Source: a virus
Reading direction: 5' to 3' (one strand)
Length of the DNA stretch: 64,000 bases
IMG/VR virus record: IMGVR_UViG_3300045999_006495
Location: 13,848-77,847 of that record
Below are positions 10,111 to 10,292 of the stretch, one piece after another. Under the pieces are notes generated by a model. It worked only from the letters and a program-made list of their open reading frames with translations. It had not been told where the DNA came from and ran no database searches. The number at the start of each line of letters is the position of its first letter. Within the stretch, counting starts at the first letter, position 1. Both the position numbers and the translations under genes were made by a program.

Positions 10111-10164
10111 AGATTGGCGTTATAACTTCCCATAAGTTTTTTAAGTTGTTGCTGAAACCAATCT
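10111..10164 (-). ncRNA. Candidate small hairpin RNA, unit 3 of 4
   Basis: AGAUUGGU-UUCAGCA-hairpin aacuu AUGGG aaguu-GCCAAUCU; starts 7 nt after a consensus -10. Confidence 0.75.
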
Positions 10165-10170
10165 AAAGTA

Positions 10171-10199
10171 AGTCTATCACATCTGTATTAAGTTGTCAA
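10171..10199 (-). promoter_or_regulatory. Sigma70-type promoter for RNA units 3-2-1 and the TROVE-like gene
   Basis: TTGACA (10199-10194)-17 bp-TAGACT (10176-10171), TG-extended. Confidence 0.8.
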
Positions 10200-10204
10200 G
10201 TAGC

Positions 10205-10257
10205 AGGTTGGTGTAATGAAACCCATAATCATTTAAGTAGTGTGCTGTAACCAACCT
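10205..10257 (-). ncRNA. Candidate small hairpin RNA, unit 4 of 4
   Basis: AGGUUGGU-UACAGCA-hairpin aauga...ucauu-ACCAACCU; starts 7 nt after a consensus -10. Confidence 0.75.
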
Positions 10258-10263
10258 AATATA

Positions 10264-10292
10264 ATTCTACCACGACTTTATGTTCTTGTCAA
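10264..10292 (-). promoter_or_regulatory. Sigma70-type promoter for RNA unit 4
   Basis: TTGACA (10292-10287)-17 bp-TAGAAT (10269-10264), TG-extended. Confidence 0.8.

What the first reader, a model, noticed from the sequence alone, without database searches (positions are those of the whole stretch)
10164..10292. Two consensus promoters place +1 exactly on the first base of hairpin units 4 and 3
Seen: TTGACA-17-TAGAAT (10292-10264) and TTGACA-17-TAGACT (10199-10171), both TG-extended. In each case the A opening the terminal stem (10257, 10164) is 7 nt after the -10 hexamer. Units 2 and 1 have no such promoter but are preceded by the same UUU-AG context. Inference: units 4 and 3 are primary transcripts whose 5' end is base-paired as in Y RNAs. 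Units 2 and 1 would be processed from, or remain in, the leader of the TROVE-like mRNA. This supports the units being RNAs rather than DNA sites, independently of the folding argument.
Basis: partly seen in the sequence, partly recalled or inferred. Interest (0 to 1): 0.7.

Follow-up and report, generated by a model that had tools for sequence, protein, structure and literature searches.

The report
Promoters starting phage Ro-like small RNAs
Two strong bacterial-type promoters in a phage genome are placed so that transcription should begin on the first paired base of two small hairpin RNAs, which belong to a widespread, undescribed RNA family that accompanies a Ro60-like protein and closely resembles the 'Class I' RNAs of social amoebae.

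Summary
TTGACA-17-TAGAAT (10292-10264) and TTGACA-17-TAGACT (10199-10171), both TG-extended, lie on the minus strand, and the A that opens each stem is the 7th base after the -10 hexamer. The complete 77.8-kb phage genome has 8 such promoters against 0.13 expected by chance. The two cases are not independent: promoter+unit 4 and promoter+unit 3 are a 93-nt tandem duplication. No terminator follows either unit, so only the 5' ends would be primary. The 3' ends, and both ends of units 2 and 1, would need processing.

The RNA reading has stronger support than the promoters give. A covariance model built from the units finds about 100 more next to DUF2828 genes in phages and metagenome bins; 103 of 104 matches lie on the gene's strand, and all 7 stem pairs covary. 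The DUF2828 protein is predicted to fold like Ro60.

A promoter abutting the first unit recurs in two unrelated loci, but in most loci the units follow tRNAs or a short leader. The units share size, stem, UUACAGCAA motif and A|AG...CUG|U ends with Dictyostelium Class I RNAs, yet score below Rfam's threshold for that family.

This scan has already noted the RNA-protein pairing on other genomes. The promoter placement is new. Transcription starts were not measured.

The parts
10707..10735 (-). Upstream promoter of the same class (TTGACA-17-TATACT, TG-extended), in front of the transglycosylase-like gene. Its transcripts can read into the array.
10267..10677 (-). Transglycosylase-like ORF (136 aa). 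Its stop codon TAG (10269-10267) forms the first three bases of the P4 -10 hexamer.
   Evidence: PF06737, E 5e-6
10264..10292 (-). Promoter P4: TTGACA-17-TAGAAT, TG-extended, 11/12 match to consensus. Predicted +1 is A10257.
10204..10257 (-). Unit 4: 54-nt hairpin RNA, AGGUUGGU-UACAGCAC...ACCAACCU-G.
   Evidence: (41.6 bits, E 1e-7)
10171..10199 (-). Promoter P3: TTGACA-17-TAGACT, TG-extended, 10/12 match to consensus. It fills all but 10 nt of the 39-nt spacer between units 4 and 3. Predicted +1 is A10164.
10110..10164 (-). Unit 3: 55-nt hairpin RNA, AGAUUGGU-UUCAGCAA...GCCAAUCU-G.
   Evidence: (46.2 bits)
10088..10109 (-). Spacer before unit 2: TTACAC-N9-TAGATT-T. It aligns to P3 with two deletions and is probably a decayed promoter copy (inference).
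10031..10087 (-). Unit 2: 57-nt hairpin RNA, AGACUGGU-UACAGCAA...ACCAGUCU-G. No promoter of its own. It gives a weak full-length match to Rfam RF01414.
   Evidence: 19.6 bits; z -4.3; 47.5 bits
9965..10021 (-). Unit 1: 57-nt hairpin RNA, A-GGCUGAC-UUCAGCAA...GUCAGCC-AG. No promoter of its own. It ends 13 nt before the start codon.
   Evidence: 35.2 bits
8518..9951 (-). Gene for a 477-aa DUF2828 + DUF7788 (vWA, MIDAS DxSxS...T...D intact) protein with a predicted Ro60-like fold. It is the presumed protein partner of the units.
8095..8254 (-). tRNA-Met(CAU) and tRNA-Arg(UCU), downstream on the same strand with no terminator-like site found between them and the gene. They are probably part of the same transcription unit.

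Best explanation
P4 and P3 are functional promoters of the host sigma-70 type, with an extended -10 element. They arose when a 93-nt 'promoter + small-RNA gene' module duplicated in tandem. Each should start transcription at, or within one base of, the A that opens the terminal stem of unit 4 (10257) and unit 3 (10164), giving a 5'-triphosphate end that is already base-paired. With no terminator, these transcripts continue through the downstream units, the Ro60-like DUF2828 gene and probably the two tRNAs. The ~55-nt units would then be cut or trimmed out. All four need 3' trimming, and units 2 and 1 also need 5' trimming. They would bind the Ro60-like protein through the 'terminal helix + UUACAGCAA' handle, much as Y RNAs bind Ro60.

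Shown here: the promoter class, the geometry, the duplication, the RNA family with covariation and strict co-orientation with the gene, and the predicted Ro60 fold.

Inferred: the exact +1, release of discrete small RNAs, binding to the protein, and any downstream function. The consistent placement beside tRNA arrays, and RtcB near one Listeria phage locus, suggest tRNA or RNA surveillance during infection.
For: Promoters: 8 TG-extended TTGACA-17-TANNNT sites against 0.13 expected. Five of the other six directly precede an SD sequence and start codon. Between the two duplicated modules the promoter elements are kept at 13/14 positions, while the rest of the spacer keeps 7/15.

Geometry: A is the 7th nt after the -10 hexamer with T at -1 in both cases. 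This is the preferred distance and Y(-1)R(+1) context for E. coli RNA polymerase (own knowledge).

Recurrence: L072 has TTGACA-17-TAGAAT 8 nt before its first unit, and L076 has TTGACA-16-TATAAT (TG-extended) 7 nt before its first unit. That is 2 of 46 units against 0.65% of background positions. Where a strong promoter lies within 30 nt upstream of an array, the gap from -10 to the unit is 5-24 nt.

RNA family:
- Model R1 finds only the four units in the whole genome.
- It gives 34 matches at E<=1 in 300 kb, 33 on the gene strand.
- It gives 70 of 70 matches on the gene strand in 378 kb of 80 further loci.
- 99.4% of stem cells are paired and 7/7 pairs show double changes.
- Over 62 non-window units the stems hold 421 Watson-Crick pairs, 1 G-U and 12 mismatches.
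- In Felix O1 the units sit between tRNA genes.

Protein: the AlphaFold model has pTM 0.70, and the top 13 PDB matches are all Ro60/TROVE, with E down to 2.9e-8. A true phage Ro60 also has its Y-like RNAs just upstream of its gene (PMC12135203).

Folding: all four terminal stems form in the fold of the full 318-nt transcript.
Against: - No transcript data exist; +1 is predicted from consensus only, and the host is unknown.
- The two coincidences are one duplicated event.
- None of the other 24 units checked in named phages and related contigs has a promoter placing +1 on the first base, so a primary 5' end cannot be required for function.
- No terminator follows units 4 or 3, so discrete RNAs depend on an unidentified processing activity.
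- Folding energy is not exceptional: z is -1.0 and -1.5 for units 4 and 3 and +0.57 for the whole leader.
- The protein does not match Pfam TROVE by sequence. Its link to Ro60 rests on a model with mean pLDDT 74.
Confidence: 0.6

Rival explanations
1. The two promoters are simply tandem promoters of the DUF2828 mRNA. On this view the hairpins stay in its 5' leader and act in cis. They could be 5'-terminal stem-loops that protect the mRNA from 5'-end-dependent decay, as in the ompA leader, or binding sites through which the Ro-like protein controls its own message. No separate small RNAs would be released.
For: No terminator lies between the units and the gene, and unit 1 ends 13 nt before the start codon. 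A hairpin starting exactly at +1 is the known geometry of mRNA-stabilising 5' stem-loops (own knowledge). In ValKK3 the handle sits in the 5' UTR of the DUF2828 mRNA, with its 3' strand inside the ORF. In L072 and L076 one promoter serves two units plus the gene.
Against: In many genomes the same units are not in the leader. They lie downstream of the gene in a Staphylococcus phage, Mycobacterium phage Lolly9 and the marine relatives, or between tRNA genes in Felix O1. Their conserved A|AG...CUG|U ends look like the boundaries of a mature RNA. Four to eight tandem copies are more than stabilisation would need. The look-alike Dictyostelium RNAs are abundant free ~60-nt RNAs (PMC7919456).
Confidence: 0.2
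2. The promoter-like sequences are not used, or are minor. The array would be transcribed by read-through from the promoter at 10735, and every unit, including 4 and 3, would be processed at both ends. The fit of +1 to the stem would be a by-product of the U-rich, then AG, context in front of each unit.
For: Most family members have no adjacent promoter and must be processed. An upstream promoter of the same class, with no intervening terminator, exists.
Against: A full TTGACA, a 17-nt spacer, TG and TAGAMT are each kept in both diverged copies. This class is about 60-fold over-represented in the genome and otherwise marks gene starts. Two unrelated loci show the same arrangement.
Confidence: 0.12
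3. The units are DNA-level elements, such as inverted-repeat protein-binding sites or cruciforms, rather than RNAs.
For: The stems are almost purely Watson-Crick: 1 G-U in 434 cells. That is also what DNA hairpins would show.
Against: The asymmetric motif always lies on the sense strand of the neighbouring gene (103 of 104 matches). The units are interleaved with tRNA genes. The partner protein has an RNA-binding Ro60 fold. G-U pairs do occur in the longer members. Promoters point into the units.
Confidence: 0.03

Closest known systems
Ro60 (Rsr/TROVE) with Y RNAs: Salmonella YrlA/YrlB, Deinococcus Yrn1, Thermus phage phiLo Ro60 with Yrl1/Yrl2 (PMC4201824, PMC12135203)
   Same: A ring-plus-vWA protein is encoded next to, and on the same strand as, one or more small RNAs whose 5' and 3' ends pair in a terminal stem. 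The system is linked to tRNAs and RNA-repair genes. In phage phiLo the RNAs also lie just upstream of the gene.
   Different: The protein matches Pfam DUF2828/DUF7788, not TROVE. The RNAs match neither Y_RNA nor YrlA in Rfam. They lack the bulged Ro-binding helix and, in this phage, any tRNA-like domain. Their handle is a 7-8-bp helix followed by single-stranded UUACAGCAA. They are shorter (~55 nt) and occur in arrays.
Dictyostelid Class I RNAs (Rfam RF01414; Kjellin et al. 2021, PMC7919456)
   Same: Both are 42-65 nt long, with a short terminal stem joining the ends that is conserved in structure but not in sequence. The motif (C)UUACAGCAA lies directly 3' of the 5' strand, and the Dictyostelium-invariant C6, C9 and A10/A11 are kept. 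The ends are A|AG...CUG|U. The interior is variable and A/U-rich. RF01414 is the only non-tRNA family hit repeatedly, always full-length and exactly on the unit borders.
   Different: Scores are 19.6-32.4 bits, below the 41.5-bit gathering score. The stem is one pair longer and the motif lies one base closer to the 5' G. The promoters are bacterial, not DUSE. The genes come from phages or bacteria. The known Dictyostelium partner is the RRM protein Rnp1A. Whether dictyostelids encode a DUF2828 protein could not be checked here.
Extended -10 sigma-70 promoters, and 5'-terminal stem-loops that stabilise bacterial RNAs (for example the ompA leader)
   Same: Consensus -35, 17-bp spacer, TGn, a -10 of the form TAnnnT, and a purine 7 nt downstream. 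The transcript would begin with a fully paired 5' end.
   Different: Here the 5' hairpin is itself a member of a conserved small-RNA family, and it is repeated four times.

Membership tests
Sigma-70-type promoter with extended -10 | -35 TTGACA, 17 +/- 1 bp spacer, TG at -15/-14, -10 of the form TAnnnT | tested here: met
   11/12 and 10/12 matches, both TG-extended. The class is enriched 8 against 0.13.
Sigma-70-type promoter with extended -10 | Initiation at a purine about 7 nt after the -10 hexamer, shown by transcript mapping | not testable with these tools
   The geometry fits (A at the 7th nt, T at -1), but no RNA data are available.
Y RNA / YrlA (Rfam RF00019, RF02553) | Match to the family covariance model | tested here: not met
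   no Y_RNA or YrlA match at E<=10 in window 9800-10450.
Y RNA / YrlA (Rfam RF00019, RF02553) | Encoded within a few kb of a Ro60 gene, on the same strand, with the 5' and 3' ends paired | tested here: inconclusive
   The position, strand and terminal stem fit. The neighbouring protein, however, is Ro60-like only by predicted fold, not by Pfam TROVE.
Y RNA / YrlA (Rfam RF00019, RF02553) | tRNA-like domain (YrlA), or the conserved bulged Ro-binding helix | tested here: not met
   Folds of the four units show an uninterrupted 7-8-bp stem and no T- or D-arm. Only Felix O1 unit 4 carries a T-arm-like insert.
Dictyostelid Class I RNA (RF01414) | Score at or above Rfam's gathering threshold (41.5 bits) | tested here: not met
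   Window unit 2 scores 19.6 bits. The best relatives score 29.6 and 32.4 bits.
Dictyostelid Class I RNA (RF01414) | Length 42-65 nt, short terminal stem joining the 5' and 3' ends, with covariation | tested here: met
   The units are 54-57 nt with a 7-8-bp stem. All 7 pairs covary.
Dictyostelid Class I RNA (RF01414) | 11-nt motif CCUUACAGCAA next to the 5' strand, with invariant U3, C6, C9, A10, A11 | tested here: met
   The window units read UUACAGCAC, UUUCAGCAA, UUACAGCAA and CUUCAGCAA. In the joint alignment with DdR sequences, C, A, C and A are invariant.
Dictyostelid Class I RNA (RF01414) | Conserved ends: start AAG, end CUGU | tested here: met
   Over 62 non-window units, -1 is A in 65%, +1 is A in 89%, +2 is G in 81%, the end is CUG in 71% and the next nt is U in 63%. 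The window units read U|AG...CUG, with CAG in unit 1.
Dictyostelid Class I RNA (RF01414) | DUSE promoter about 60 nt upstream; dictyostelid genome | tested here: not met
   These are phage genomes with bacterial promoters.
Ro60 / TROVE protein | Pfam TROVE (PF05731) sequence match | tested here: not met
   One search gives PF11443 DUF2828 and PF25043 DUF7788 only. A profile search of the PDB gives TROVE chains at E 0.24.
Ro60 / TROVE protein | HEAT-repeat ring plus vWA domain with a MIDAS motif | tested here: met
   The top 13 Foldseek matches are all Ro60, aligned over the whole length, with TM about 0.5. D278-x-S280-x-S282, T348 and D380 are invariant in 31 homologues.

The most novel reading that the evidence does not exclude
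The small RNAs beside phage and bacterial DUF2828 genes and the Class I RNAs of dictyostelid amoebae may be one RNA family. If so, the Ro60-like DUF2828 protein would be their conserved partner. Class I RNAs, so far reported as unique to Dictyostelia and of unknown mechanism, would then be the Y-RNA counterparts of a second Ro-like ribonucleoprotein, acquired from bacteria or viruses. In this phage the RNA would be made directly as a primary transcript with a paired triphosphate 5' end.
Probability: 0.4. Interest if true: 0.85.

Novelty: new variant of a known kind. Interest (0 to 1): 0.62.

Why it matters
DUF2828 proteins occur in at least 711 sequenced phages, including Felix O1, Listeria, Staphylococcus, Campylobacter, Vibrio and Mycobacterium phages, and in thousands of metagenomic sequences. 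I found no paper that assigns them an RNA partner.

This locus makes a concrete, testable prediction about how such partner RNAs are made: defined promoters, a defined +1, and a defined 55-nt product. That makes it a convenient template for in vitro transcription, binding assays and structural work on a second Ro/Y-like particle.

The close likeness to Dictyostelium Class I RNAs also suggests a candidate protein partner and an origin for a eukaryotic RNA class whose mechanism is unknown.

Tried and rejected
- Rfam at gathering thresholds finds only the two tRNAs in the window.
- blastn of the locus against 50,697 phage records found nothing.
- An exact-pattern scan of viral contigs for the unit 2 handle found nothing.
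The contig encoding the 95%-identical protein P0001, the best test of promoter conservation, could not be fetched. Scans of viral, metagenome and genome contigs returned only relatives at 50% identity or less.
- Relatives of a virus record cannot be drawn with the genome search.
- A sequence-only HMM of the phage units scores Dictyostelium RNAs only weakly, at most 5.3 bits. Even so, 6 of 7 real sequences rank in the top 8 of 1,407, ahead of almost all shuffles.
- Whether Dictyostelium encodes a DUF2828 protein could not be tested. No eukaryotic library is on hand, the proteome files in the paper's supplement are truncated, and Avesson et al. 2011 is not held.
- Minimum-free-energy folding alone does not separate the units or the leader from shuffles, so I gave it no weight.
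- Small ORFs in the array (25-59 aa) have no support and were rejected.

Full report
**1. The observation**

The region was read on the minus strand. It contains TTGACA (10292-10287), 17 nt, then TAGAAT (10269-10264), and TTGACA (10199-10194), 17 nt, then TAGACT (10176-10171). Both have TG two bases before the -10 hexamer. The consensus scan lists them at 11/12 and 10/12 matches, both TG-extended.

The A at 10257 and the A at 10164 are each the 7th base after the -10 hexamer, each preceded by T. Each opens an 8-bp terminal stem: AGGUUGGU/ACCAACCU and AGAUUGGU/GCCAAUCU. The stop codon TAG of the upstream transglycosylase-like ORF (10677-10267) forms the first three bases of the P4 -10 hexamer.

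Units 2 (10087-10031) and 1 (10021-9965) have no comparable promoter; the best scores are 6/12 and 5/12. All four units are preceded by U-rich sequence and then AG.

**2. Are the promoters more than chance?**

The window lies in a complete 77,847-bp linear phage genome. The pattern TTGACA-N14-TGN-TANNNT occurs 8 times in it. One hundred dinucleotide-preserving shuffles give a mean of 0.13 and a maximum of 2.

Five of the other six sites lie 10-30 nt before a Shine-Dalgarno sequence and a start codon. One of them, at 10735-10707, precedes the transglycosylase-like gene. This is therefore a genuine promoter class of this phage, and P4 and P3 belong to it.

A start at the 7th base, with a pyrimidine at -1 and a purine at +1, is what E. 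coli-type RNA polymerase prefers (own knowledge). The call is good to about +/-1 nt and has not been measured.

**3. The two cases are one event**

The P4+unit 4 module (94 nt) and the P3+unit 3 module (95 nt) align over their whole length, loops included. The score is 37.5 against -2.1 +/- 4.0 for shuffles, at about 70% identity. They are a 93-nt tandem duplication, so the coincidence of +1 with the stem counts once.

What the pair does show is selection. TTGACA, TG and TAGAMT are kept at 13 of 14 positions, while the rest of the spacer keeps 7 of 15.

The 22-nt spacer before unit 2 reads TTACAC-N9-TAGATT-T. It aligns to P3 with two deletions, so it may be a decayed copy of the promoter. This is an inference.

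All four window units have U at -1, whereas A is the usual base at that position in the family (65% of 62 units). That fits descent from a promoter-bearing module.

**4. What the transcripts would look like**

No terminator-like site lies on the minus strand between 10735 and the gene start. P3 begins 5 nt after unit 4 ends. RNA started at P4 or P3 should therefore continue through the later units and into the 477-aa gene (9951-8518). It probably continues into tRNA-Met and tRNA-Arg (8254-8095). Read-through from the promoter at 10735 also enters the array.

Units 4 and 3 can thus be primary only at their 5' ends. All 3' ends, and both ends of units 2 and 1, need processing or trimming.

The four terminal stems all form in the fold of the full 318-nt leader. 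Its energy is no better than that of shuffles (z +0.57), so folding energy carries no weight here. No credible ORF lies in the array.

**5. What the units are**

The gene behind the array matches Pfam DUF2828 and DUF7788 (vWA), not TROVE. An AlphaFold model built from 31 homologues has mean pLDDT 74 and pTM 0.70. Its 13 best PDB matches are all Ro60 structures: Thermus phage phiLo, Xenopus, Deinococcus and human. They align over the full length, with E down to 2.9e-8. The MIDAS residues are invariant.

Homologues occur in 711 phage records, including Felix O1, ValKK3, LAh_9, Campylobacter CPX, and phages of Listeria, Staphylococcus, Enterococcus, Bacillus and Mycobacterium. More than 7,400 related proteins turn up in metagenomes.

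A simple scanner, and then a covariance model (R1, built from 17 units), found the same element beside these genes:
- In 300 kb of 43 sources there were 34 matches at E<=1, 33 of them on the gene's strand. The window contributed only its four units.
- In 378 kb from 80 further loci, 70 of 70 matches lay on the gene's strand, mostly within 700 nt upstream of the gene.
- The whole phage genome holds only the four units.
- In 25 aligned members, 99.4% of stem cells pair and all 7 pairs show changes on both sides (65 cells). Shifted registers give 29-42% pairing.
- In Felix O1 the units sit between tRNA genes.
- In marine relatives, two long forms with the same handle follow the gene and end in a terminator.

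These results show that the units are RNAs tied to the Ro60-like gene. They do so far more strongly than the promoters could.

**6. Is +1 on the first base a rule of the family?**

It is not.
- None of the other 24 units checked in named phages and related contigs has a promoter placing +1 on the first base.
- Among 46 units in the genome-contig loci, two do. L072 has TTGACA-17-TAGAAT with the unit's A as the 9th base. L076 has TTGACA-16-TATAAT, TG-extended, with the A as the 8th base. In both it is the first unit of a two-unit array. Background is 0.65% of positions.
- Of 39 arrays, 8 have a strong promoter within 30 nt upstream, with a gap of 5-24 nt from the -10 hexamer. The rest follow tRNAs or have no recognisable promoter.

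A promoter close to the first unit is therefore recurrent. A leaderless start is one end of that range, and most family members must be processed at the 5' end. An internal second promoter, such as P3, was seen only here.

**7. Comparison with known families**

No Y_RNA or YrlA match was found. The system works like Ro60 with Y RNAs: paired ends, the same strand, and positions next to the gene. In phage phiLo, Yrl1 and Yrl2 also lie upstream of the Ro60 gene (PMC12135203). It is not a member of those families.

The only non-tRNA Rfam family that keeps appearing is RF01414, the Class I RNA of Dictyostelium:
- window unit 2 at 19.6 bits;
- five LAh_9 units at up to 29.6 bits, and one BUCT-ZZ01 unit;
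- L076 at 32.4 bits and L077 at 26.7 bits.

Every match is full-length and sits exactly on the unit borders. All are below the 41.5-bit threshold.

Kjellin et al. (PMC7919456) describe Class I RNAs as follows:
- 42-65 nt long, with a 6-bp terminal stem conserved in structure only;
- an 11-nt motif CCUUACAGCAA beside the 5' strand;
- ends AAG...CUGU;
- no members outside Dictyostelia.

The phage family has a median length of 59 nt, the motif UNCAGCAA in the same place, and ends A|AG...CUG|U. A joint alignment with seven DdR sequences from that paper's supplement shows the shared layout, with one extra base in the amoebal RNAs. I rate homology or a shared partner as plausible but unproven. I could not test whether dictyostelids encode a DUF2828 protein.

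**8. Earlier notes of this scan**

After reaching the above, I found that the scan has already recorded the pairing of DUF2828 genes with these RNAs, and the likeness to Class I RNAs, on several other genomes, including Felix O1-type phages, gut bacteria and giant viruses. A note on this genome lists the same promoter class.

**9. Verdict**

The promoters are very likely real (about 0.85). The units are RNAs of a Ro-like system (about 0.9). The exact +1 and the release of discrete RNAs are predictions (about 0.6).

The main rival is that the hairpins stay in the mRNA leader as stabilisers or autoregulatory sites (about 0.2). The promoters themselves are ordinary. The wider interest lies in the RNA-protein system they drive.

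Noticed in passing
L001-L016 (for example L001 4417-4570 and 4626-4899; L006 4430-4590 and 4645-4920): In marine and freshwater relatives, the partner RNAs lie downstream of the DUF2828 gene as two long forms of about 160 and 290 nt. Both carry the same 'helix + YUGCAGCAA/UUWCWGCAA' handle, show compensatory changes, and are followed by an intrinsic terminator. Neither matches any Rfam family.
   Followed up: partly
L019 (Felix O1) 3921-4046: The fourth Felix O1 unit carries an insert with T-arm-like (GGGUUCGAUUCC) and D-arm-like sequences inside the variable loop. This recalls the tRNA-like domain of YrlA.
   Followed up: no
L018 (Vibrio phage ValKK3) 1416-1580: The handle AGACAUUUUACAGCAA lies in the 5' UTR of the DUF2828 mRNA, just after a TTTACA-16-TATAAT promoter. 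Its complementary strand lies inside the ORF, which may point to autoregulation.
   Followed up: no
L043, L044, L047, L048, L077, L079, L080: DUF2828 genes sit in or beside tRNA arrays in many unrelated phages. L077, L079 and L080 have more than 15 tRNAs around the gene. Listeria phage LMSP-25 has an RtcB-type ligase 1.3 kb downstream.
   Followed up: partly
62 non-window units (L017-L124): The stems are almost free of wobble pairs: 421 Watson-Crick pairs, 1 G-U and 12 mismatches. That is unusual for an RNA helix and hints at strict shape recognition.
   Followed up: partly
window 8690-8718 (+): A TTGACA-17-TACAAT site (11/12 match to consensus) lies antisense inside the DUF2828 gene. It could be chance or an antisense promoter.
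   Followed up: no
window 8217-8528 (-): A 103-aa ORF overlaps the stop codon of the DUF2828 gene and runs 38 nt into tRNA-Met (8179-8254). It has no Pfam match, so its status as a real gene is uncertain.
   Followed up: no
window 10719-13314 (-): Upstream neighbours on the same strand are a glucosaminidase-like ORF, a calcineurin-like metallophosphatase, and a Cas4/PD-(D/E)XK nuclease. A metallophosphatase also lies near the DUF2828 gene of Bacillus phage Izhevsk.
   Followed up: no
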